DNA of 64,000 bases from NCBI GenBank assembly GCA_000092065.1, contig CP000600.1; one strand, 5' to 3'. Shown here one piece after another: positions 3,741 to 16,310 of the stretch. The notes under the pieces were generated by a model. That model saw nothing but the letters and a program-made list of their open reading frames with translations, ran no database searches and had not been told where the DNA came from. A program made the position numbers and the translations under genes. The DNA is from Ostreococcus lucimarinus (taxonomy: Eukaryota). Numbering within the stretch: position 1 is the stretch's first letter; every line of letters begins with the position of its first letter.

Positions 3741-4988
3741 TCAGAGCTTGCCCGTGATGGACTCGATGAAAATTTCCAAGCTGTCCGGGTCTCGGCGCTC
3801 CGAGCCGAGCTTGACGTACCCCGAGCGGCCTTTCGGGAAGAGCAAGAGCGTCGGGAACGATTTCATCGACAAGTTTTCTTGCGACCACTCCTTTTCGTCG
3901 CGATCGGCGCGGAACTTGGCGAATTTCACGCCCTTCGGCCCGAGACGCTCGGCGGCGGTTTCGAAACCGCTCACCATGCGCTGACAAAACGGACACCACG
4001 GCGCGTACAGCACCGCCAGAGTGGTCTCGCCGTGCGTCTTTTCGTCCTTCAACGCGGCGATGTCGTCTCGAGACAAGTTTCGAATCGAGTCGTGCTCAAA
4101 AATGTCTTCTTCCGTCGCCTCGCGATCGTCTTGCTTCGCCTTTTCCTCCGCCGTCAAGTTGCCGCTGTGCAAGCCGCACTCCTTGTCGCTCGCGTCTTCC
4201 CACCACCACCGTCCTTCGCGCTCTTGCTGTCCCGGAAGCACGGCCCGCGTGCACGGCGCGCATCCGATCGAGACGTACCCACGCTCGTGCAACGCGTTCA
4301 CGGGCGTGCCCATGACGCGCAAGAAATCCCACACCTCTTGCGACGTCGCGTCCGTGAGCGGGTTAAACTTGACCAAACTTCCCGCGCCCCCGGCCGCGCC
4401 CTCGAACACGGGATCGATCTGGCACGCCGGCACCGCGTTTCGCGTACCGGGGCTCTGATCCTTCCGCTGCCCCGTCACCCACGCCGTGAGCGTCGCCAGC
4501 TTCGCCCGCAAAGGCTTCACCTTGCGCACGCCGCAGCACTCCTTGTGTCCGTCCTCGTAAAACGAAAACATCCCCTTCTCGTTCACCAGCGCCTTCACCG
4601 CCTCGCTCTCGGGAAAGCAATACTCAATCTTTATGTCAAAATGTTTCTCAACCTTATCGAACAGCTCGTACGTCTCCGGATTCAACCGCCCCGTGTCGAG
4701 CGAGAAGACGCGATACGGCCGCCCCGTGAGCGCCGCGTACTGAATCACCGCCACGTCCTCCGCCCCGCTGAACGCGATCGCCAGCCCGTCGCCGTGCGTT
4801 TCCAGCGCCTTATCCATGATCTCCAGCGGCGTCGCGCGCGCGCGCTCGAGCGCGTCGCGCATGCCGTCGACGTCCGCCTTCGTCGCGCGCGAGGGCGCGC
4901 GCGTCGTTCGCGCCTTCGTCGTCGCGCGTCGCGCCGCGCGTCGCGCGCTCGGGCCCCGGAGCGCGCCGCGCGCGCGCGCGCTTCGCAT
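3741..4988 (-). CDS. APR: Plant-type adenosine 5'-phosphosulfate (APS) reductase: PAPS-reductase domain plus C-terminal thioredoxin-like domain (WCPFC), with an R/A/S/T-rich transit peptide
   Basis: ORF 3741..5828 (-), trimmed to the in-frame ATG at complement 4986..4988 ([12 protein letters not shown]...). Further upstream the ORF is low-complexity and overlaps the divergent helicase gene. Motifs seen: [26 protein letters not shown]. Confidence 0.85.
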
Positions 4989-5088
4989 CGCGCGCGCCGT
5001 CGCCGTTCGCGCGCGTCCCGTTCGCGCGCCGCGTCGCCGAGTCGCGACGTCGAGGGCGCGGCGCCGCACTCGTCGACGCGTCGCGACG
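4989..5088. promoter_or_regulatory. ~100-bp bidirectional promoter region between the divergent APR and DHX16 start codons
   Basis: Head-to-head ATGs at 4988 (-) and 5089 (+). This is an inference from gene arrangement only. Confidence 0.3.
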
Positions 5089-8000
5089 ATGGCGGCGTCC
5101 CGCGCCGCGGTCGTCGTCCGCGACGGCCTGCACGACCTCCTCGGGTACACCGCGAGCGCGCTCGAGGCGTTCGTGCTGGACAAGGCGCGAGAGAGCGGCG
5201 GCGACGCGCGCGCGCTCGAGGCGGCGCTGATCGAGTGCGGATGTCCCGACGACGAAAAGACGCGCGCGTTCGCGCGCGCGGTGTGCGCGAGCGCGTCCGA
5301 CGACGCGAAAGGGAGCGCGGCGGACGCGCGCGGAGGCGCCGCGGCGTCGACGGGCGTCGCGAGGGCGGCGACGAGGGATGATTGGACGGCGACGCGCGCG
5401 GCGGCGACGTACGAGTTGTTGGCGGAGGAGAGCGAGAGCGAGCGCGAACGCGAACGCGAGGAGGACGACAGAGCGAAGCGAAGGGCGACGAAACGAGCGA
5501 AAAAGATGAGGAAGAAACGAGGGAAGGGCGAGGGGGCGAGCGAGAGCGAGGAGGACGCGGAGGCGGTGGAGACGCGTCGGCGAGCGCTCGCGGGGGAACG
5601 CGAAGACGAATCGTACGAGGCGCCGTCGGCGTCGGAGGAAGACGAAGAGACGAGGAAGGCGCGAGAGATGGAGGAAGATTTGCGAGAGCGCGATGAGTTT
5701 GAACAACGCCTGCGGGCGAAGGATGAGGCGAAGACGAAAAAGTTGAGCGGCGATCGAGGACCGACGGAGGCGGAGCGCGCGGAAGCCGAGCGTCGAGGCG
5801 CGCATTTGGAGACGGATGAACAGCGCACAGATTTAGTGCCCGAACTCAGAAAGGTATCGCGGCAAGAGTACTTGAAGAAACGCGAGCTTCAAAAGCTCGA
5901 GGAGCTGAAAGAATCGATCAAAGAGACGGAGTACTTTTACGAAGGCCAAGACGTGACGGAGGAGCAGCGCAAGGATTTAGAAAAGAGGAAGAAGGTTTAC
6001 GAGCTCGCGATGGAGCAAATCAATAGCATTAACGACGCCTTAGAGGAGCGTTACTCTATACCCACGGCGTACGACGATCCGAACAAGCCGAAGTCCACGA
6101 ACGAACGGTTCGCGGTGGCGAGACAACGATACAAGGAGCCCGACCCCGAGGACGACGCGAATCCTTTCAAGGATCAAGACCAGTGGGAGGCGCATCAAGT
6201 CAAACAAGCGCAGGCGCAGTTCGGAGCGAAGAATAAGAAATCTGAAGTCAAGGAGTACGACTTGGTGTACGACGATCAAATCAAGTTCATCAAGGATGAA
6301 ATCATGGCGGGCGACGGCGTGTCGAGCGGAAGCGAGAGCGAGAGCGAGAGCGAGAGCGAGAGCGAGAGCGAGATGGACGAAGAGAAACGCACCAAGCTCG
6401 CTTTGGCGGGAAAACTCGGGAAAAGGGCCAAGATAGAAGCCGATCGCAAGTCGCTTCCGATTTTTCCATACCGCGAGTCTCTCATCAAGGCGGTGGAGGA
6501 TCACCAAGTCGTCGTCATCGTCGGCGAGACGGGTTCGGGCAAGACGACGCAAATTCCGCAGTACATGTGGGAAGCTGGTTTCGGTGGCAAGACGCAAAAA
6601 ATCGGTTGTACGCAGCCGAGACGAGTGGCGGCGATGTCCGTCGCGTCGCGCGTCGCGGAGGAAGCGGGCGTAAAGCTCGGTCACGAGGTTGGCTACACCA
6701 TTCGTTTCGAGGACTGCACCAACGACAAGACGCGAGTCAAGTACATGACGGACGGGATGCTCTTGCGCGAATTCTTGGGTGAGCCAGACTTGTCGTCGTA
6801 TGCGGTGATGATGGTGGACGAGGCGCACGAGCGCACGCTGCACACCGACGTTCTTTTTGGCCTCGTCAAGGATATCGCCAGATTCCGACCGGAGATCAAG
6901 CTTCTCATCTCCTCCGCCACGCTCGACGCGGAAAAGTTTAGCGAGTACTTTGATTTCGCACCGATTTTCAGAATTCCCGGTCGTCGATTTCCGGTGGATA
7001 TTCTCTACACACAGCAACCCGAGGCAGATTACGTGGACGCCACCGTGGTGACGGTGTTACAAATTCATCTCACCCAACCCGAGGGCGACATTTTAGTCTT
7101 TTGCACCGGTCAAGAGGAGATTGAAAGTTGTGAGGAACTGTTGAAGACGCGCATCCACGAGATGGAGAAGAAACCTCCCGAGCTTATCATCGCGCCCATT
7201 TACGCATCGCTGCCAAGCGACATGCAGGCGAAGATTTTCGAGGACACGCCCAAGGGATCGCGAAAAGTCGTCCTGGCGACGAACATCGCCGAGACGTCGC
7301 TCACGATTGACGGCATCAAATACGTGATTGATCCTGGGTTTTGCAAGCAAAAGAGTTATAACCCACGCACGGGGATGGAGTCACTCGTCGTCACCCCCAC
7401 ATCGCAGGCGAGCGCGTTGCAGCGCGCCGGTCGCGCCGGTCGTACATCGGCGGGAAAGTGTTTCCGTCTATACACGGCGTGGAGTTTCCAAAACGAACTC
7501 GACCCGAACACCGTACCCGAAATTCAGCGCACGAACCTCGGGAACGTGGTGTTGATGTTGAAATCACTCGGAATCAACGATTTGATGCACTTCGACTTCA
7601 TGGATCCGCCCCCGGCCGAGACGTTACTTCGAGCGCTCGAACAACTGTACGCCCTCGGCGCGTTGAACGATAGAGGCGAGCTCACGAAACTCGGGCGCAA
7701 GATGGCTGAGTTCCCTCTGGACCCGATGCTTTCGAAGACGCTCTGCGCGAGTGACAAGTACAAAGTAAGCGATGAAGTGATGACGATTTGCTGCATGCTG
7801 TCGTGCGGAAACACGGTATTTTATCGTCCCAAAGACAAGCTACAGCTCGCCGATCACGCGCACAAATCCTTTCACATCGGCAACGTCGGCGATCACATCG
7901 CGTTATTAAACGTATACAACTCATGGCGTGACGCCGACTTTTCTGTCACGTGGTGTTACGAAAACTTTGTGCAGCAGCGGACGATGAAAACGGCGCGAGA

Positions 8001-9256: not shown

Positions 9257-9839
9257 TCGCGTCCCGAACGTCGCGCGTCGATCGCGCGCCGTCGCGCCGC
9301 CGCGTCGATCCGTCGCGCATCGCCGCGCCGCCGCTTGGCCTCGAGCCCCGCGCGCCGTTCGCGTCGCCCTCGCGGCGACGACGGCGAGCGCGCGCGCCGA
9401 AATCGCGGTCGTCATCGAGCGCGTAATTCTCCCGAGCGCACCGCGGCGCGCCGTTCCCGATCGACGCGTCGACGCGCGCGCGCGGGTCTGACGACGGCCC
9501 GCGCCGCTTCGACGTCGACCGCGCGCGAGTTCACGAAGATCGACCGCGCGCGTCGTCGTCGCGCCGTCTCGCGCGCTCGAACGCGCGCGCGCGCCGGGAA
9601 TAATTTTGACGCGTCGATCGGCGCGGCGCGCGCGCTCGGGCGCGGCGCGGTCGACGCGCGCGAGGACGCGCGCGGCGCGGTCGACGAATCTTAGACTCTC
9701 GTCGCGTATTGTAGCGCGCGCGTTCGAATCCGACGCCGCACTCGACGCCGCCGCGCGCGCGCGCGTCCTCGAGCGCGCGCGGCGTCGAACGCGACGGCGA
9801 CGACGGGACCGCGCGACGGCGACGCGACGGCGCGGCGCG

Positions 9840-10075
9840 ATGGCGACGAACGAGACGGTGAAGGTGGTGAGAAAGGTGCTGCGCGCGCGAGAGCAAAAGG
9901 CGACGCGCGCGAGCGATGCGGTCGACGCGGGGGACGCGCGCGCGCGCGCGACGGCGACGAACGATGAGTTGGACGCGACGGTGACGGTCGCGGCGCGGGA
10001 GGAGGCGTATAGGTTGGCGCGCGAACGCATCTTTGGCGACGGGGACGAAGGCGAAGGCGACGACGTCGCGGACGA

Positions 10076-10128
<53 letters not shown>

Positions 10129-10502
10129 ACGATGGGAACGATGGGAACGCGCTGGACGTGAGAGGCGATGGCGCGGACGCGTCGATGGGGCGGGAGCGCG
10201 GCAACGGTGGGTCGGGGATGTCGGCGAGCGCGCGGGCGTTCGCGCCGAAGAAGGCGACGCGGAAGGATCGGTGGGCGGACTCGTTCGATCCGGATTTTAT
10301 TCGCCGCGATCCGAGCGTGGGGTCGGCGAGGATGGTGCCGATGAACGTCCCAGGGGTGATGCCGATGATGATGCCGCCGCCGATGGGTGGGATGACGTGG
10401 CAACAAGCGGCGCCGAGCTATTTCGCGCCGCCCATGCCGCCGCCCATGCCGCCGGGACCTCCGCCGCCTCGCCCATCGCGGGAACGAGGCGACGACGTCT
10501 GA
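9840..10502 (+). CDS. SUZ-domain protein (SZRD1-like) with an internal 17-residue poly-Thr tract and a Pro/Met-rich C-terminus
   Basis: ORF 9606..10502 (+), trimmed to ATG 9840 (MATNETVKVVRKVL). The SUZ-like motif EEAYRLARERIFG is present. The family assignment is tentative. Confidence 0.4.
10073..10130 (+). repeat. (ACG)n trinucleotide repeat encoding poly-Thr
   Basis: acgacgacg... run; it translates to T17 in the SUZ protein. Confidence 0.7.
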
Positions 10503-10845
10503 CCTAGCCGATACTGTAATTTAGTAAGTCAATCTAGTGTTGTCGCGGTGCGTGCGCGCGTGCGCGCGTTAATGAAACAATCTTTGCGTTCCGTTACAAA
10601 GCGTCGAATCCGCGCCTCGCTAAGAGAGGGCGCGTCTCGTCGTGTCGCGCGGCGTGTGACTGTTCTGGTCCCGCGAGCGAATGTAGCGTGACGCGTCCGA
10701 GATGTTCGTCGTCCGCGTGCGCTCGCTCGCCGGTCTTCACCGTGCTAAATGTGTCGCCCCGTTTTGTACAAATGAATTCGCTACGTCGCGACGAATTCTC
10801 CGTGGAGAGCCCCGAGCGCTCTCTTTTCCCCTCAAACGTCCTCAC

Positions 10846-12412
10846 TCACGCCTCGCGTCGCACATTCACGTGACCTTCACGAATCAATTCATCCAAATTC
10901 AACGTTTCGACGTCAGACGTCGCGTAAAGTACCTTGGCGGTGCGATTACGCTCGTTGAGCGAAATCACCTCCGCGCGATACCACAAGTTATCGTCCGGCC
11001 AAAACAACTGTGGAGGCGGCGCGCGCGCGCGATCACGTCAGTCTTCGCATCCTCGTTCATCTTCTCACGCGCATCGCGTCTTGTCGACGCGTGACGCGAC
11101 GCGTGACGAGACAAATCGCCTCGAGTGGGCGTCGGGCTCCCTCGTCTCGAGGGTTCCGAAAACGACGGTTCGCGCTCGCACCTCAATTTGCGCGTTCTTC
11201 AGCGTCGTCAGCGCTTGATCGGGGTCTAGGATGAACCCAGGGGATGGTTTCTTAAAACCTTGTGCGTCCATCTGCGCATCGAACCGAGGCGTCGATCGCG
11301 TCGTCGTCAGTCGTCGTGGTCGTGGTCGTCGTCATCGTCGCGAAGGAGCGAATCGCGTCACGCGCGCATTCGTCACGAAATCGCCGCCAGCGCGCTTCGT
11401 TCGCACGCACCGGGTCCACTTTATGCTTCTTCACCTTGGAACTATTTCCCTTGACGTCCGCGAGCGCGGTTTTCGCGCCCTTCCCCGTCGCGTCGCGCCC
11501 GTTCGCCTGCGCACCGCCATTCTGACGCGCGCCCGCGCTCGTCGGTTTCTCTTCGCGTCCGTGCGCCGCGCTGAGCGTTTCGTACACCGTGGGCACGGCG
11601 TTGATCTGCGCGAAAAGTGCATCACTGATCGTCGTCGTCGTCCCGCGTCGCCGTCAGTCGCGCGCGTCGTCGTCGAACATCGCGTCGCTTCGTCACCCGC
11701 GAGGGTCGCATTCGCGTCGTTTCAGCGGCATCGGCATCGACGACGACAACGCGCTCGACGCTCGACGCACCGTTTCTTGGCGTCAAACTTGGCGCCGTAA
11801 TAAAACGCCACCGCCATCAACCACGCATCGCTGTGCACGGCGACCAACGCGAGCCAATCCTTACGCTGCGTCGTCGAAAGCACCGCGCATCGCGACTTCG
11901 TCAGTCGGTCGTTCGCGCGCGCGGTCGAATCGAATCAAATCGCATCGTCGCGCCGCATTCGCGCCGCGTTCGCGCCGCGCGCCGCGCGGATTCGCGCGCA
12001 TCGAATTTACCTGCATCCCATCGCGCGCGAAATTAATCCCGAGCGCCGGTTCCGGGAGCTCGGGCGGGACTTCTTCGGCGGGTAATTGCACGTCCCACGT
12101 CCCGTCGGGATTGCCGTACAGGCACAAGTTTTCCTTGTCCGGGTCGCACTGCGCGTAGAACGCCTCGACGTCTGCGTGGTTCGACGCGGGTTAATCGTCT
12201 GCGTCGTCGTTCGCGTTCGCGTCGCGCGCGCTTCGTCGCGCGCTTCGTCGCGCGACCGCGATCGCGTCCCGGTCGCGTCCCGGTCGCGCGACGTGCGAAT
12301 CCGTCGATCGGCGCGCGCGCGCGTTCGTACCGCGCGTCAGGGCCTTGACGAGGCCGTCGCGTCGACGGGAAAAGTTTGCGTGGACCTCATCGACCGTGCG
12401 CGGGGCCTCCAT
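10846..12412 (-). CDS. Alfin-like PAL-domain chromatin reader. Six-exon model: complement join(12331..12412,12011..12171,11771..11865,11411..11624,11182..11271,10846..11007). The C-terminal exon encodes a Tudor/Agenet-like domain rather than the usual PHD finger.
   Basis: Manual splicing. Exons 1-4 give [132 protein letters not shown], which is near-colinear with plant Alfin PAL domains. Introns are 139-174 nt with GTRMGW donors, CTGAC branch and CAG acceptors. Exon lengths sum to 804 nt, in frame. The last exon ([47 protein letters not shown]) ends at TGA 10846 and is followed by AT-richer 3'UTR. Exons 5-6 are less certain than 1-4. Confidence 0.6.
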
Positions 12413-12587
12413 GGGCGCCGGGCAGGCGAGGCAGCGCGGGAATGTCGCGACGGCGCGGTGGGATTTGAAATACGTTTGGGAAACACGTGGATTCGCCATC
12501 ATTTGGCGAAATGTCGATTTGGGACGGGGACTTCGCGTCGCGCGCGCGGAGACGCGATCGGAGAGGGAAGGCGCGCGAAAGCGTGCG

Positions 12588-15500
12588 TTACACGTCATAC
12601 GCGAGTAAATCGTCGACGTCGCCGACGCCGATGGCGATGAAGACGAAGTCGCACAGCGCGGCGACGAGGCGAGGATGGGGGAGAGGGGGGCGGCGGGCGA
12701 GCGTCGCTGCGAAGCGCTCGCGCGCGGGATGGATCGGTTCGAGGGCGTCGATGGCGGTGATGATCCAGGGTGTGACGACGTCGGGGGCGGTATGGAGTAA
12801 AGTGGCGAGGAATGAGGCGGCGGGGCGGAGGCAGGCGCGAGGGGTAATTTCGGCGCACGCCGCGCGGAGGATGGCGTTCGCCGCGAGCGGGCCGCGGGAG
12901 AGGAAGTATTCGTCCACGCGACACGCATTGGCGACCCAGGGTGCGGATCGCTTGGCCTTTTCACCGGGAGAAACGATCGCGTTCAGCAGCGCCAAAGAAG
13001 CGCGCACGGGGGCGTACTCTCGCAGCTCGAGCGCGGCGACGGAGAGATCGAGCACGTCGAACAAGGTTTCGTTCGCCAATCCCTGCGCCGGCGCGAAGAT
13101 AACGAACGCCCTAGCGGTGGAAAATAAAGCTTCAGCGAGATCCCAATCATCTGATCCCGATCGCACGCCACGCACGGTCTCACATGCTATTTGGGAGAAA
13201 GCCGCGCTCAACGTCGCGCCGACGTGCGGGGCGCTTGGCAACAACTCGCTCGTGCCACTCTCGGGCGAGCTGATCGACGCCACCTCTATCGCGGTGGCGA
13301 TCGGCTCGAGCAAGGACGCACACTTAGTCGCCATGAACGTGCGCGCGATGGATTCGAGCATGGGCACGATCATGTTGACTGAACTTTCCTTGGCGCTCAG
13401 AAGCGCCGCGACGTAAATCTCCGCCGCAGCTTTAATCACGCTCGGCGCTTGCCACGTTCGCTTCGCGACGATTTCTTCCAGCGTCGGCCACGCCGCGGCT
13501 AAAACAGAGATGGCAGGGTGCTCACAGCTCGACGCGATCGTCGCACTCGGTAAAAATTCTAAGAATCTCACCGACGCCGCGATCAAGGCGAGTTCAGCCG
13601 CCATCGCTCTCGCCGCCGAGGCGTGCGCGATTTGGTTCGGAGGAATCTGCGGCGCCATTTCGGCAGCGATCCGTTTGCATCGCGCAAGCACAGGAGCTAT
13701 TAACCTCGCGCTTGCTTCCGACGCTTGCTGCACGGGCATCGCCGCAATCACCCGCGCCAATCCTTCGGTGACCGACGCGCGACCGTCCTCGTCGTCTTCG
13801 CTTTCAAAAGTCAATCGCACGTCCGCGATGCATCTTTCGGTGTGTTCTAACAGCGCCGCAAACGTGGATGGTTCCTTCAAATGTCGCGCACACCGCGAAC
13901 ACACTGATTTAAACGCTAAAGCCGCCCGCGACCACGCGGGAGGATGCGGAAAAGACGACGTGATGTACATCAAAACGCCGCGCGCGCGCGCGGCTTGCGC
14001 CGCCGAGTTCGCGGGAGGGCCGCGACGACCGAGCCAGTTGGCGTAAGACGCGATGAGGCGACACGTACCCGCTCGAACGAGCTGATGCGATGAGAACAGA
14101 CCGCTGTTGTCGGTCGTGTGCTCAGAAATCGTCGATAGAAGTTGCGCGAGAAACGTTTCGATCTCCTCCGAGGGTGCGTCTTCCAAATCGTCGTTGACGC
14201 GACTCGCGGGAGCGCGCAATGCGAACGCTCCCGCCTCAGCGGCTTGCCAATTTTGCGCGGCACCTAACGCGCTACCAATTATGCTAAAGTATTGCCCACG
14301 CAAAACGCCGTAACAGTTGTCGAGAAGATCGGCGACGACGTGTTCGCGAAATCGCTCAAACGTGTCCTCGTCCTCGTTCGCGACGGCCCAGGTGGTGAAA
14401 TCGTCGGGCAACGTCGCTTGTTTCAGTAACACCTCCGTCAAACGCGCGTGCATGGGCGCACGCAAGCTTTCGTGCCTCGAAGACACTCCCACAACATCCA
14501 TCATTAAGAAAAAATCAACCGCCACCTCGGTCACCTCGCGACCGTGGCGCTCCATGAGCGACAAGATGAGCGACACGAGCGCCAAGGAATCTTCGTCACC
14601 GCGCGCGAGCACGCTCACGCACCGTTCGCTCAACGCAACGGCGACGAGACAAATATTTCGCGCGAGCGAAACGCCGTCGTCGGAGTCGTTTGCCGCGCTC
14701 GCGTGCGCGAGCAAACCTCGCGTCACCGCGTTCATCGCCTGAAATTCCTCCGCCTCGCCGCCGCTTCGTCCTTGGTGTAAATCCACCAAAAAGTCCACCG
14801 CCGCCGCTCCGCACCCGCCGCTCTCGATCGCCAAGCACTGCAAGACGTCCCCGAAAAGTTGGCCGTGTCGCACGGCGAACTCAGTCGGGGACAATCGCAA
14901 TCCGCCGCCGACGTCGCCCGACGGATCCAACTTTAACCACCCGCGCGCCGCGCGCACGCACGACGCCTTCAACGCGTCCGTCTGTCGCGACCGCGCGCTT
15001 CCACACGCGCTAAACACCTCACGCACCGTAATCAAAACCCTCTCTCCCTCGTTCGCGCACGCCATCGCGAGTTCCCGTCGACTCGACGTCTCCGCCTCGT
15101 CGCACGCCTCCGCCGCGAGCGCCAACAACTCCATCCCCGCCCGCATCGCGCTCGACCCCACCCCGCTCGATCGCACCGCCCCGAACGCCGTCTCCACCAC
15201 CTCCCGCATCTTCGCGCTCCCCATTCGCGCGCCTCCGCGCGCCAGCGCGAGTCCCAACCGTCTCGCCGCCGTCTCCGTCGTCTCGTCGTTCGCCGTCGCC
15301 GCGAACGCCGCCGTCGTCCGTCGCATCATCGCCTCCCGCGCCCCCTCGCTCGCCCCGTTCCACCGCTCCCTCGAGCGCGTCGTCGCGCTCAGCGCGTTCG
15401 CCGCGTAATACGCCACGCACGCGTCCCCTCGCGCGCGTTCGAGCAGTCCGAGCGCGACGCTCGCCGCGCGCGGGTCCTCCGACAGCGCCATCAGACGCGC

Positions 15501-15599
15501 GTTCGCCTCGTCTCGCGTCGCTCGCGTCGACCGCGCGTCGTACAGCGCGACGACCGCGGCGCGCGCGCGCTCGATCGACGCGTCGTCGGCGTCGCGCAT
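12588..15599 (-). CDS. Importin-beta family nuclear transport receptor (transportin-3/importin-13/Mtr10-like), all-helical HEAT/ARM protein
   Basis: ORF 12588..15758 (-), trimmed to ATG at complement 15597..15599 (MRDADDASIERARAAVVALYD...). This is an importin-N-like N-terminus followed by ~1000 aa of HEAT-like repeats. Confidence 0.6.
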   Translation of the reverse strand: MRDADDASIERARAAVVALYDARSTRATRDEANARLMALSEDPRAASVALGLLERARGDACVAYYAANALSATTRSRERWNGASEGAREAMMRRTTAAFAATANDETTETAARRLGLALARGGARMGSAKMREVVETAFGAVRSSGVGSSAMRAGMELLALAAEACDEAETSSRRELAMACANEGERVLITVREVFSACGSARSRQTDALKASCVRAARGWLKLDPSGDVGGGLRLSPTEFAVRHGQLFGDVLQCLAIESGGCGAAAVDFLVDLHQGRSGGEAEEFQAMNAVTRGLLAHASAANDSDDGVSLARNICLVAVALSERCVSVLARGDEDSLALVSLILSLMERHGREVTEVAVDFFLMMDVVGVSSRHESLRAPMHARLTEVLLKQATLPDDFTTWAVANEDEDTFERFREHVVADLLDNCYGVLRGQYFSIIGSALGAAQNWQAAEAGAFALRAPASRVNDDLEDAPSEEIETFLAQLLSTISEHTTDNSGLFSSHQLVRAGTCRLIASYANWLGRRGPPANSAAQAARARGVLMYITSSFPHPPAWSRAALAFKSVCSRCARHLKEPSTFAALLEHTERCIADVRLTFESEDDEDGRASVTEGLARVIAAMPVQQASEASARLIAPVLARCKRIAAEMAPQIPPNQIAHASAARAMAAELALIAASVRFLEFLPSATIASSCEHPAISVLAAAWPTLEEIVAKRTWQAPSVIKAAAEIYVAALLSAKESSVNMIVPMLESIARTFMATKCASLLEPIATAIEVASISSPESGTSELLPSAPHVGATLSAAFSQIACETVRGVRSGSDDWDLAEALFSTARAFVIFAPAQGLANETLFDVLDLSVAALELREYAPVRASLALLNAIVSPGEKAKRSAPWVANACRVDEYFLSRGPLAANAILRAACAEITPRACLRPAASFLATLLHTAPDVVTPWIITAIDALEPIHPARERFAATLARRPPLPHPRLVAALCDFVFIAIGVGDVDDLLAYDV

Positions 15600-15693
15600 G
15601 GCGCGCGCGTCGCGCGTCGCGCCGCGATGTGCCGACCGATGGTCGCGGATGGATGCGACGCGACGCGACCGCAGACGCCGACGCGGCGCGCCG
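15600..15693. promoter_or_regulatory. ~94-bp bidirectional promoter region between the divergent importin-beta-like and MTH1-like genes
   Basis: Head-to-head start codons; inference only. Confidence 0.3.
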
Positions 15694-16310
15694 ATGCCGC
15701 GCGAGGTGCGCGAGGGCGACATCGCGCTCGCGCGCGGCGCCGCGCATCGGGCGTTCACGCTCGTCGTCGTGCGCGACTACGAGGGCGGTCGAGTGCTGCT
15801 GGGCGAAAAACTGCGCGGATTCGGCGCCGGGTGCGTCCGCGACCGAGACGAGGCGAAACGCGCGATGACTGACGAATGCGCGACGGGCGTAGGTATTACA
15901 ACGGATTCGGGGGGAAGGTGGAGCGCGGGGAGACGGTGGAGGCGGCGGCGGCGCGAGAGCTGACGGAGGAGGCGAACGTCGAGGCGACGAACATGACGCG
16001 GCGAGGGGCGCTGCGATTCGTGTTCGACGATAAACCGCTCGAACCGTGGTTGGTGCACGTGTTTCACTGCTCGCGGTACGACGGGGAGATCGCGGCGAGC
16101 GATGAGATGCGACCGGAGTGGTTCGATTTGGACGACGTGCCGTTTGAAAATATGTGGGCGGACGATCCGTACTGGTGGCCGTTGTTTTTGGAGGAGAAGG
16201 AGTTCGTGGGGACGTTTACGTTCACGAACACGACGACGCTCGTGGATTATTGGATTCGGGAGACGAAGGATCTGATGCTCGACGTCGAGGCGATGACGGC
16301 GAACGAATGA
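15694..16310 (+). CDS. NUDT1: Nudix hydrolase, MTH1/NUDT1-like (oxidised purine nucleoside triphosphatase). Two exons: join(15694..15830,15893..16310).
   Basis: ORFs 15598..15963 and 15876..16310 lie in different frames. They are joined by a 62-nt intron (GTGCGT donor, CTGAC branch, TAG acceptor). The spliced product ...LLGEKLRGFGAG|GYYNGFGGKVERGETVEAAAARELTEEA restores the Nudix box and parallels human MTH1 (RGFGAGRWNGFGGKVQEGE; MRPEWF, FENMWADDPYWWPL). Confidence 0.75.

What the first reader, a model, noticed from the sequence alone, without database searches (positions are those of the whole stretch)
10846..12412. Alfin-type PAL domain joined to a Tudor-like C-terminal domain instead of a PHD finger
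Manual splicing on the minus strand recovers a six-exon gene. The first four exons reproduce the plant Alfin-like N-terminal PAL domain almost residue for residue. Canonical Alfin-like proteins end in an H3K4me3-reading PHD finger. Here no Cys/His-rich PHD is encoded. The last exon instead encodes [47 protein letters not shown], which has the hallmarks of a Tudor/Agenet barrel (aromatic cage W..W.Y, then a ..V.Y..G.E..L motif). It ends at a clean stop followed by AT-richer UTR. All five introns are 139-174 nt with the same donor and branch signature, and the exon lengths keep frame. The overlapping track ORFs (11252..11596, 11065..11271, 10965..11186) are fragments of this gene in three frames. 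A PAL-Tudor combination would be an unusual chromatin-reader architecture.
Basis: inference. Interest (0 to 1): 0.6.

Follow-up and report, generated by a model that had tools for sequence, protein, structure and literature searches.

The report
Green-algal Alfin protein with Tudor reader
This is a real, expressed six-exon gene of the marine alga Ostreococcus lucimarinus whose Alfin-type chromatin adaptor ends in a Tudor histone-reader domain instead of the usual PHD finger; the form is conserved across green algae but overlooked or mislabelled in the literature.

Summary
The six-exon minus-strand model (12412..10846, 267 aa) is byte-identical to the deposited O. lucimarinus CCE9901 protein XP_001422648.1 / UniProt A4SAQ0. 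Three spliced transcript assemblies lack exactly the five predicted introns. Residues 6-131 are a canonical Alfin/PAL domain (Pfam E=1.4e-66) with all seven acidic-pocket residues acidic. There is no PHD. Residues ~190-267 fold as a Tudor barrel (AF2 pLDDT 91). The best PDB match is the Arabidopsis RDM15/PDS5C H3K4me1-reading Tudor 7DE9 (TM 0.83). The cage residues W217/Y224/Y242 and the H3R2-binding Glu E248 are invariant.

The architecture is not unique to this window. About 109 of the 120 best database hits, from across the named Chlorophyta, share it. The same extended Tudor (54 % identical) also replaces the PHD in chlorophyte ING paralogues such as CrING2.

Published surveys say prasinophytes lost Alfin-like genes, or label orthologues "PHD finger proteins".

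Most likely function (inferred): a dimeric adaptor that reads methylated H3K4 through the Tudor and recruits chromatin complexes through the PAL domain.

It is a new, undescribed variant of a known family, of moderate interest.

The parts
12331..12412 (-). Exon 1 (ATG 12412-12410; residues 1-27 plus 1 nt), start of the PAL domain
   Evidence: The start matches RefSeq XP_001422648.1 and the conserved M..PRTV start of homologues.
12172..12330 (-). Intron 1, 159 nt, phase 1, GTACGA..CAG, no CTGAC branch motif
   Evidence: Absent from transcript contigs L004-L006.
12011..12171 (-). Exon 2: PAL core including the acidic P/E loops ([19 protein letters not shown])
11866..12010 (-). Intron 2, 145 nt, phase 0, CTGAC 35 nt from the acceptor
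11771..11865 (-). Exon 3: PAL helix ([31 protein letters not shown])
11625..11770 (-). Intron 3, 146 nt, phase 2, CTGAC 29 nt from the acceptor
11411..11624 (-). Exon 4: end of the PAL domain (to residue 131, about 11570), then a disordered Gly/Lys-rich linker with a KVKKHK basic patch
   Evidence: Linker pLDDT is below 50.
11272..11410 (-). Intron 4, 139 nt, phase 0, CTGAC 35 nt from the acceptor; absent in the environmental relative L002/L003
11182..11271 (-). Exon 5: N-terminal extension of the Tudor module (KPSPGFIL strand, short helix, start of beta-1 ...AQIE)
11008..11181 (-). Intron 5, 174 nt, phase 0, with in-frame stops, CTGAC 30 nt from the acceptor; read through in the deposited O. 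tauri model
10846..11007 (-). Exon 6: Tudor barrel, residues 215-267, plus the TGA stop (10848-10846). Cage codons are W217 11001-10999, Y224 10980-10978 and Y242 10926-10924. The H3R2-clamp Glu E248 is at 10908-10906.
10569..10845 (-). 3' UTR (minimum extent covered by all three transcript contigs)
   Evidence: the contigs end at 10569, 10426 and 10103.
12497..12502 (-). Two upstream in-frame ATGs that would add 29-30 N-terminal residues; it is unresolved whether they are used

Best explanation
The locus encodes the chlorophyte-type member of the Alfin family, a two-module chromatin adaptor.

Shown:
- An N-terminal PAL domain (residues 1-133) with the partner-binding acidic pocket intact.
- A ~50-residue disordered basic linker.
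- A C-terminal single Tudor barrel with family-specific extra N- and C-terminal strands (residues ~190-267), standing where land-plant AL proteins have an H3K4me3-binding PHD finger.
- The closest solved relative of the Tudor is the H3K4me1-reading Tudor of Arabidopsis RDM15/PDS5C.
- The three aromatic-cage residues and the glutamate that clamps H3R2 are invariant in the family.
- The same Tudor also replaces the PHD in chlorophyte ING paralogues.

Inferred:
- The Tudor docks the protein on methylated H3K4. The methylation-state preference is uncertain, because only one of RDM15's two Kme1-coordinating aspartates is kept.
- The PAL domain, dimeric in plants, recruits chromatin-modifying or remodelling partners to those nucleosomes.
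- The protein would thus do the job of PAL-PHD proteins with a different reader.
- RING1 and BMI1 are reported absent from O. lucimarinus, so the partners there are more likely non-PRC1 complexes (SWR1- or SWI/SNF-type).
For: Gene model:
- The product is identical to RefSeq XP_001422648.1.
- Spliced transcript contigs lack all five introns.
- A relative encodes exons 4-6 contiguously.

PAL domain:
- PF12165 scores E=1.4e-66.
- 5xvl and 5xvj score E~1e-57.
- The AL2 acidic-pocket residues D43/E45/E47/E66/E67/E71/E74, required for partner binding (bioRxiv 10.1101/2024.09.12.612777), map to D37/D39/E41/E60/E61/E65/E68.
- All seven are acidic here. Six are ~85-100 % acidic across 100 family members; the first is Asp in 86 %.

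Tudor:
- The profile hits 7DE9 at E=1.2e-7.
- PF21743 matches 28 of 43 members.
- AF2 pLDDT is 90.9.
- Foldseek's top hit is 7DE9, TM 0.83, rmsd 1.6 A, and nearly all other hits are Tudors.
- The RDM15 cage W616/Y623/Y641 and H3R2-binding E647 (PMC8184781) align to W217/Y224/Y242/E248, each 100/100 in the family.

Domain arrangement: two confident modules and a linker with pLDDT below 50.

Functional equivalence to the PHD:
- The same extended Tudor sits at the C-terminus of ING-domain proteins (23 of 38 scanned).
- It is 54 % identical to the CrING2 Tudor, E=7e-17.
- No protein among the 120 top hits has both a PHD and this Tudor.
Against: - No binding data exist for any member of this family.
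- The window protein's own Tudor scores are below Pfam gathering thresholds (TUDOR 16.2 vs 23 bits).
- RDM15's D643 is Thr/Ser in 82 % of members, so the Kme1-specific hydrogen-bond pair is incomplete.
- Single Tudors of similar fold read H3K36me3 (PHF1/PHF19), H4K20me2 or methyl-arginine, so the target residue cannot be deduced from the fold alone (PMC8184781 discussion).
- PRC1 partners are reported missing in O. lucimarinus (PMC6599366), so the PAL partner is unknown. That same survey also missed this gene, so its absences are not fully reliable.
Confidence: 0.6

Rival explanations
1. The architecture is as described, but the Tudor reads a different methyl mark. Candidates are H3K36me3 (as in PHF1/PHF19), H4K20me2, or methyl-arginine on a non-histone partner (as in SMN/TDRD3). 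On this reading the protein is not a functional analogue of PAL-PHD H3K4 readers.
For: - The SMN, TDRD3, LBR, PHF20 and PHF1 Tudors are the next-best sequence and structure matches.
- The Kme1-specifying Asp pair of RDM15 is only half conserved.
Against: - The best match by both profile and fold is the H3K4me1 reader 7DE9, about five orders of magnitude better in E-value than SMN/TDRD3.
- The H3R2-clamping Glu is invariant.
- The fourth aromatic residue and the Asn of the SMN-type sDMA cage (SMN Y130/N132, from my own knowledge of that structure) have no counterpart in the YATSDVE segment (alignment).
- The module substitutes specifically for H3K4me-reading PHD fingers in two independent families.
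Confidence: 0.25
2. The Tudor-like tail is a structural or protein/nucleic-acid-binding module with no methyl-mark reading. The protein would then act mainly as a sequence-specific 'Alfin-like transcription factor' binding GNGGTG-type motifs, as is often assumed for AL proteins.
For: - AL proteins are classified as transcription factors in plant TF databases.
- PMC13089224 treats the Chlamydomonas orthologue this way.
- Tudor/SH3-like barrels can bind nucleic acids. Weak Foldseek hits include relaxase and Lsm-like barrels.
Against: - Absolute conservation of a three-residue aromatic cage plus the acidic clamp across ~100 sequences is the signature of a methyl-lysine reader.
- The PAL domain is documented as a protein-interaction and dimerisation module.
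- No DNA-binding domain is detected by Pfam.
Confidence: 0.1
3. Exons 5-6 are not part of the mRNA. The real protein would be a truncated PAL-only product ending at the read-through stop at 11252, and the 'Tudor' would be a chance ORF.
For: - The deposited O. tauri model reads into intron 5 and lacks the Tudor.
- ORF 11252..11596 exists.
Against: - Three spliced transcript contigs join exons 4-5-6 exactly as predicted.
- A transcriptome-derived UniProt entry is 266/267 identical.
- A relative has exons 4-6 as one ORF.
- O. tauri carries an intact Tudor exon downstream of its mis-called stop.
- The tail is conserved in ~109 of 120 homologues.
Confidence: 0.01

Closest known systems
Arabidopsis ALFIN-LIKE 1-7 (PAL-PHD; PAL structures 5XVL, 5XVJ)
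   Same: - The N-terminal PAL/Alfin domain aligns over residues 3-131 with E~1e-57.
- All seven acidic-pocket residues are kept.
- The size is similar (~240-270 aa).
- The layout is the same: folded N-domain, disordered linker, small C-terminal reader.
   Different: - The C-terminal reader is a Tudor beta-barrel, not a Cys4-His-Cys3 PHD zinc finger.
- H3K4me3 specificity cannot be assumed.
- The PRC1 partners RING1 and BMI1 are reported absent in O. lucimarinus.
Tudor domain of Arabidopsis RDM15/PDS5C bound to H3K4me1 (PDB 7DE9; Pfam PF21743-type plant Tudor)
   Same: - It is the best sequence-profile match (E=1.2e-7) and the best structural match (TM 0.83, rmsd 1.6 A).
- The cage W/Y/Y and the H3R2-binding Glu are conserved.
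   Different: - D643 becomes Thr/Ser, so the Kme1-specific Asp pair is incomplete.
- Extra conserved N-terminal (P.P.G[RF].L) and C-terminal (EGH[MV].[LV]) strands are present.
- The host protein is an Alfin adaptor, not a cohesin regulator.
Chlorophyte ING-Tudor proteins (CrING2 Cre07.g357650, VcING2; noted in PMC6599366)
   Same: - The extended Tudor is essentially the same: 54 % identity, an identical [11 protein letters not shown] 11-mer, and the whole profile 3-81 matched.
- It sits at the extreme C-terminus, where the canonical family has an H3K4me3-reading PHD.
   Different: - The N-terminal module is ING (PF12998), not PAL.
- Named members come only from Trebouxiophyceae and Chlorophyceae, whereas PAL-Tudor also occurs in Mamiellophyceae, Chloropicophyceae, Ulvophyceae and Chlorodendrophyceae.
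Canonical chlorophyte PAL-PHD proteins (CrAL1 Cre10.g441050, VcAL; Nephroselmis and Pyramimonas transcripts)
   Same: The PAL domain is 72-77 % identical in prasinophyte examples. It co-exists with PAL-Tudor in Chlamydomonas.
   Different: These keep the PHD. No such PHD-type protein was seen for any named Mamiellales. PMC6599366 lists none for O. lucimarinus.

Membership tests
Alfin-like (AL) family, as defined in the literature: PAL + PHD | N-terminal Alfin/PAL domain (Pfam PF12165) | tested here: met
   E=1.4e-66, residues 6-131, profile 1-126 of 127. The AL2 and AL7 PAL crystal chains score E=6.6e-58 and 7.8e-57.
Alfin-like (AL) family, as defined in the literature: PAL + PHD | Acidic pocket of the PAL domain (AL2 D43, E45, E47, E66, E67, E71, E74) used for partner binding | tested here: met
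   These map to D37, D39, E41, E60, E61, E65 and E68, all acidic here. Six positions are ~85-100 % acidic in 100 PAL-Tudor proteins; the first is Asp in 86 %.
Alfin-like (AL) family, as defined in the literature: PAL + PHD | C-terminal Cys4-His-Cys3 PHD finger (PF00628) | tested here: not met
   There is no PF00628 hit. The only cysteines are C36 and C44. No PHD pattern or tblastn hit occurs anywhere in the window. 0 of the 109 tail-bearing homologues have a PHD.
Alfin-like (AL) family, as defined in the literature: PAL + PHD | Binding to H3K4me3/2 and interaction with RING1/BMI1 (PRC1) | not testable with these tools
   This needs biochemistry. PMC6599366 reports no RING1 or BMI1 in O. lucimarinus.
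Single Tudor domain, plant PDS5C/RDM15 type (Pfam PF21743-like) | Five-stranded Tudor/SH3-like barrel fold | tested here: met
   AF2 tail model pLDDT 90.9 and ~97 in the full-length model. Foldseek's top hit is 7DE9, TM 0.83, rmsd 1.6 A, followed by the PHF20, SPF30, TDRD3 and SMN Tudors.
Single Tudor domain, plant PDS5C/RDM15 type (Pfam PF21743-like) | Significant sequence match to a curated Tudor model | tested here: inconclusive
   The window protein alone is sub-threshold: TUDOR 16.2 vs 23 bits, Agenet 15.2 vs 27, LBR_tudor 12.9 vs 22. The family profile, however, hits 7DE9 at E=1.2e-7, and 28 of 43 members hit PF21743, best at 6.2e-5.
Single Tudor domain, plant PDS5C/RDM15 type (Pfam PF21743-like) | Aromatic cage (RDM15 W616, Y623, Y641) and H3R2-binding Glu647 | tested here: met
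   W217, Y224, Y242 and E248 are each 100/100 in the family. W217 and Y224 were partly pre-selected by my motif filter; Y242 and E248 were not. In alignment A3 they are invariant columns.
Single Tudor domain, plant PDS5C/RDM15 type (Pfam PF21743-like) | Asp643/Asp645 pair that coordinates the Kme1 ammonium (me1 specificity) | tested here: not met
   D643 becomes T244 (family: T 48, S 34, D 11). D645 becomes D246 (family: E 69, D 20, S 11). One carboxylate is kept and the other is replaced by a hydroxyl.
Single Tudor domain, plant PDS5C/RDM15 type (Pfam PF21743-like) | Actual methyl-lysine peptide binding | not testable with these tools
   Requires ITC, peptide arrays or a crystal structure.
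SMN/TDRD3-type methyl-arginine Tudor | Four-aromatic cage plus Asn (SMN W102, Y109, Y127, Y130, N132; residue identities from my own knowledge) | tested here: not met
   In the HMMER alignment to SMN, the segment equivalent to Y-T-G-Y-G-N is Y-A-T-S-D-V. It has no fourth aromatic residue and no Asn. The E-value is only ~0.01.
   E=0.03-0.17, 12.8-15.2 bits against a 27-bit cut-off. Only 9 of 43 members match weakly, against 28 of 43 for PF21743 Tudor.

The most novel reading that the evidence does not exclude
Early in chlorophyte evolution one extended Tudor module displaced the H3K4me3-reading PHD finger in paralogues of both classic PHD-reader adaptors, Alfin and ING.

On this reading, in Mamiellales such as Ostreococcus, which are reported to lack RING1 and BMI1, the PAL-Tudor form is the only Alfin-family protein left.

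If the Tudor prefers lower H3K4 methylation states, as RDM15 does, these algae read the H3K4 methyl code through a different state and reader than land plants. The PAL domain would then have an ancestral, PRC1-independent role.
Probability: 0.3. Interest if true: 0.55.

Novelty: new variant of a known kind. Interest (0 to 1): 0.4.

Why it matters
Alfin-like proteins are textbook plant H3K4me3 readers and are defined by PAL + PHD.

In the smallest free-living eukaryotes it may be the only form.

It corrects published statements:
- 'Prasinophytes lost Alfin-like genes' (PMC2997552).
- 'O. lucimarinus: no AL' (PMC6599366).

It exposes a truncated O. tauri gene model.

The parallel PHD-to-Tudor swap in ING proteins gives a natural experiment on reader-module interchangeability. 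It also offers tractable systems (Chlamydomonas, Ostreococcus) for asking what the PAL domain does where PRC1 is reduced or absent.

It is an incremental evolutionary and annotation insight rather than a new mechanism.

Tried and rejected
- I looked for a hidden PHD exon. tblastn with the CrAL1 and Physcomitrella PHD sequences, and a regex scan of all six frames of the 64 kb, found nothing.
- I considered the read-through product ending at 11252. It is rejected by the spliced transcripts.
- I considered Agenet and SMN-type sDMA Tudor assignments. They are rejected on profile ranking and missing cage residues.
- Exact look-up of the neighbouring SUZ-like ORF, tried for organism identification, failed because the start codon was guessed. 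The Alfin protein itself identified the organism.
- Literature searches for any description of an Alfin-Tudor protein found none. They found only the ING-Tudor remark and the mislabelled orthologue. The library lacks most subscription-journal papers, so absence is not proof.
- The ING-Tudor search gave no named Mamiellales hit, but it is word-indexed and shallow (37 hits), so absence there is not established.
Full report
**1. What is in the sequence**

Reading 10500-12900 on the minus strand and assembling the exons gives a six-exon CDS:
- 12412-12331, 12171-12011, 11865-11771, 11624-11411, 11271-11182 and 11007-10846.
- The total is 804 nt, in frame, encoding 267 aa.
- The five introns are GT..AG, of 159, 145, 146, 139 and 174 nt, in phases 1, 0, 2, 0, 0.
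- Introns 2-5 carry a CTGAC branch-like motif 29-35 nt from the acceptor. Intron 1 does not.
- Exon GC is 0.60 (GC3 0.74). Intron GC is 0.65-0.72.
- The 200 nt after the stop have GC 0.60.

- 11252..11596 is exon 4 running into intron 4.
- 11065..11271 is exon 5 running into intron 5.
- 10965..11186 is out of frame with exon 6 and is not coding. The true exon-6 ORF is 10846..11007.

**2. Is the gene model real?**

Yes, on four independent grounds.
- (a) The exact 267-aa sequence is deposited as XP_001422648.1 / ABP00965.1 / UniProt A4SAQ0. It is named 'predicted protein' or 'Alfin N-terminal domain-containing protein' and comes from Ostreococcus lucimarinus CCE9901. This also identifies the window's organism.
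- (b) A second UniProt entry from Ostreococcus sp. 'lucimarinus' is 266/267 identical over the full length.
- (c) Three contigs assembled from different public runs (SRR28369223, DRR699210, SRR28369150) align to the window at 99-100 % and are missing exactly the five predicted introns. They are spliced transcripts, so every junction is confirmed at the RNA level.
- (d) In an environmental Ostreococcus-like genome (L002/L003), exons 4, 5 and 6 form one uninterrupted ORF with the same junction residues (KVDP|EDALG......AQIE|LYWPDD).

In O. tauri the deposited model (BE221DRAFT_192483) reads into intron 5 and stops. An intact Tudor exon lies just downstream, at L001 ~5355-5498, past the annotated end at 5315.

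**3. Domains**

PAL domain:
- Residues 6-131 match Pfam Alfin (PF12165) at E=1.4e-66.
- They match the crystallised PAL domains of Arabidopsis AL2 and AL7 at E~1e-57.
- Seven acidic residues of AL2 form the partner-binding pocket, and their mutation abolishes most interactions (bioRxiv 10.1101/2024.09.12.612777). All seven are acidic here (D37, D39, E41, E60, E61, E65, E68). Six are ~85-100 % acidic across 100 family members; the first is Asp in 86 %.

No PHD:
- There is no PF00628 hit and no Cys after residue 44.
- There is no PHD-like coding potential anywhere in the 64 kb.

C-terminal Tudor:
- Alone, the tail gives only sub-threshold TUDOR, Agenet and LBR_tudor hits.
- A 43-sequence profile of the tail hits the RDM15/PDS5C Tudor (PDB 7DE9) at E=1.2e-7, then the SMN, TDRD3 and LBR Tudors at ~0.01.
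- 28 of 43 members match Pfam PF21743 (PTM/DIR17-like Tudor).
- AlphaFold2 on the tail alignment gives pLDDT 90.9.
- Foldseek against the PDB ranks 7DE9 first (TM 0.83 on the target, rmsd 1.6 A). Almost all further hits are Tudor domains.
- The full-length model has two confident modules: PAL at 1-133 and Tudor at ~190-267 (pLDDT ~97). They are joined by a linker with pLDDT below 50.
- The module is an 'extended' Tudor. A conserved N-terminal strand (P.P.G[RF].L; residues 196-198 here) and a C-terminal strand (EGH[MV].[LV]; residues 261-264) are predicted with high confidence.

**4. Functional residues**

In RDM15 the H3K4me1 methyl group sits in a cage of W616, Y623 and Y641. D643 and D645 hydrogen-bond the monomethylammonium, and E647 and Q654 hold H3R2 (PMC8184781). 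Through the HMMER and MAFFT alignments these map as follows:
- W616 to W217, Y623 to Y224, Y641 to Y242 and E647 to E248, each present in 100 of 100 family members.
- D643 to T244 (family: T/S 82, D 11).
- D645 to D246 (family: E/D 89, S 11).

My motif filter pre-selected W217 and Y224 but not Y242 or E248.

The cage and the R2 clamp are therefore under strict constraint, which is the signature of a working methyl-lysine reader positioned on the H3 N-terminus. The me1-specifying carboxylate pair is only half retained, so the preferred methylation state cannot be called. The SMN-type four-aromatic sDMA cage is not present.

**5. How common is the architecture?**

- Of the 120 best hits to the full protein, about 109 carry the tail, 6 carry a PHD and none carries both.
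- Named PAL-Tudor sources span Mamiellophyceae (Ostreococcus, Bathycoccus, Micromonas, Mantoniella) and Chloropicophyceae.
- They also span Trebouxiophyceae, Chlorophyceae (including Chlamydomonas CHLRE_07g320950), Ulvophyceae (Ulva, Ostreobium) and Tetraselmis.
- PAL-PHD proteins exist in other chlorophytes (CrAL1, VcAL, Nephroselmis, Pyramimonas) and in streptophytes.
- So the two forms are paralogous in at least Chlamydomonas. No PHD form was seen for any named Mamiellales.

**6. An unexpected parallel**

Searching 1.84 billion representatives with the tail profile gave 1326 hits. Only 8 of the top 150 have a PAL motif.

Among single-match proteins with the whole extended module at their C-terminus, 23 of 38 have an ING domain (PF12998). 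Chlamydomonas CrING2 ends in ...[15 protein letters not shown]...ARVLYSTGDFETLSLEE...HMVLI, which is 54 % identical to the window's Tudor (E=7e-17). Reciprocally, an ING-Tudor query finds PAL-Tudor proteins as its next-best hits.

PMC6599366 had noted that the PHD of CrING2 and VcING2 is 'replaced by Tudor'. It did not notice the Alfin counterpart.

Other hosts of the core Tudor match only profile positions ~20-70, without the extensions. These hosts are PDS5, bromodomain/DDT, FAR1 and nucleoplasmin-like proteins.

That one and the same module stands in for the H3K4me3-reading PHD in two unrelated adaptor families is the best indirect argument that it reads H3K4 methylation.

**7. Literature status**

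- Lang et al. 2010 state that prasinophytes lost Alfin-like genes (PMC2997552).
- Huang et al. 2019 list no AL, RING1 or BMI1 for O. lucimarinus (PMC6599366).
- Database names such as 'alfin-like PHD finger protein' (Chloropicon primus) are applied to PHD-less proteins.
- I found no paper describing an Alfin-Tudor protein. The searchable library is incomplete.

**8. Mechanism and verdict**

Shown: a real, expressed gene encoding PAL + disordered linker + extended Tudor, conserved across Chlorophyta.

Inferred (confidence ~0.6):
- The Tudor anchors the protein to methylated H3K4.
- The PAL domain, dimeric with an acidic pocket as in AL2, recruits chromatin complexes.
- In O. lucimarinus these are probably not PRC1.

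Rivals:
- Another methyl mark or methyl-arginine (0.25).
- A non-reader or transcription-factor role (0.1).
- An artefactual model (0.01 or less).

The finding is correct but not unique to this window, and the gene model was already deposited. What is new is recognising the Tudor, its relation to RDM15 and to ING-Tudor, and the correction of the 'loss' and 'PHD' statements. I rate it a new variant of a known kind, with interest 0.4.

Noticed in passing
L001 (O. tauri KZ155785.1) 4001-5498: The deposited O. tauri gene model BE221DRAFT_192483 (P0010) reads into intron 5 and ends at 5315 with a nonsense tail. An intact Tudor exon ([52 protein letters not shown]) lies at ~5355-5498. The model is truncated.
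   Followed up: yes
L002 357-983 and L003 70-696 (environmental Ostreococcus-like contigs) vs window 11008-11410: The relative encodes exons 4-5-6 as one ORF, so introns 4 and 5 are absent there. Both are present in O. lucimarinus and O. tauri. This is an intron presence/absence polymorphism within the genus-level clade.
   Followed up: partly
window 12497-12502 (minus strand): Two in-frame ATGs lie 87-90 nt upstream of the RefSeq start. Spliced transcript assemblies include them and yield a 297-aa ORF (P0123). Those contigs are also continuous with the upstream gene, so they may be merged or read-through transcripts. The true start codon is unresolved.
   Followed up: partly
window 12331-15534 and 10103-10845: Transcript contigs L004-L006 run without a break from the upstream 1056-aa ORF (12588..15758, minus) into this gene. 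L005 extends 3' to 10103, overlapping the convergent plus-strand ORF 9606..10502. This suggests overlapping UTRs or read-through in this compact genome.
   Followed up: no
window 9606-10502 (+): The convergent neighbour encodes a low-complexity protein with a run of 17 threonines. The syntenic gene in L002 is annotated PF12752 (SUZ). Gene order (large ORF, Alfin, SUZ-like, MTP18, HA2 helicase) is shared with O. tauri and the environmental relative.
   Followed up: no
P0001 (Tara metatranscriptome ERR1712216) vs window protein: All 12 amino-acid differences fall in the first ~45 residues, and the remaining ~220 are identical. The cause could be a chimeric assembly or an allele from another clade.
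   Followed up: no
Database and literature names of orthologues (P0022 Chloropicon primus, P0064 Tetraselmis, Cre07.g320950): [quoted passage not shown] These are transitive annotation errors.
   Followed up: yes
P0175-P0320 (tail-profile hits): The core Tudor subtype is highly promiscuous in the green lineage. It occurs in arrays of 3-13 copies and is fused to PDS5, bromodomain/DDT/PHD, FAR1, nucleoplasmin-like and AP2/NUMOD domains. Only the PAL- and ING-linked copies carry the N- and C-terminal strand extensions.
   Followed up: partly
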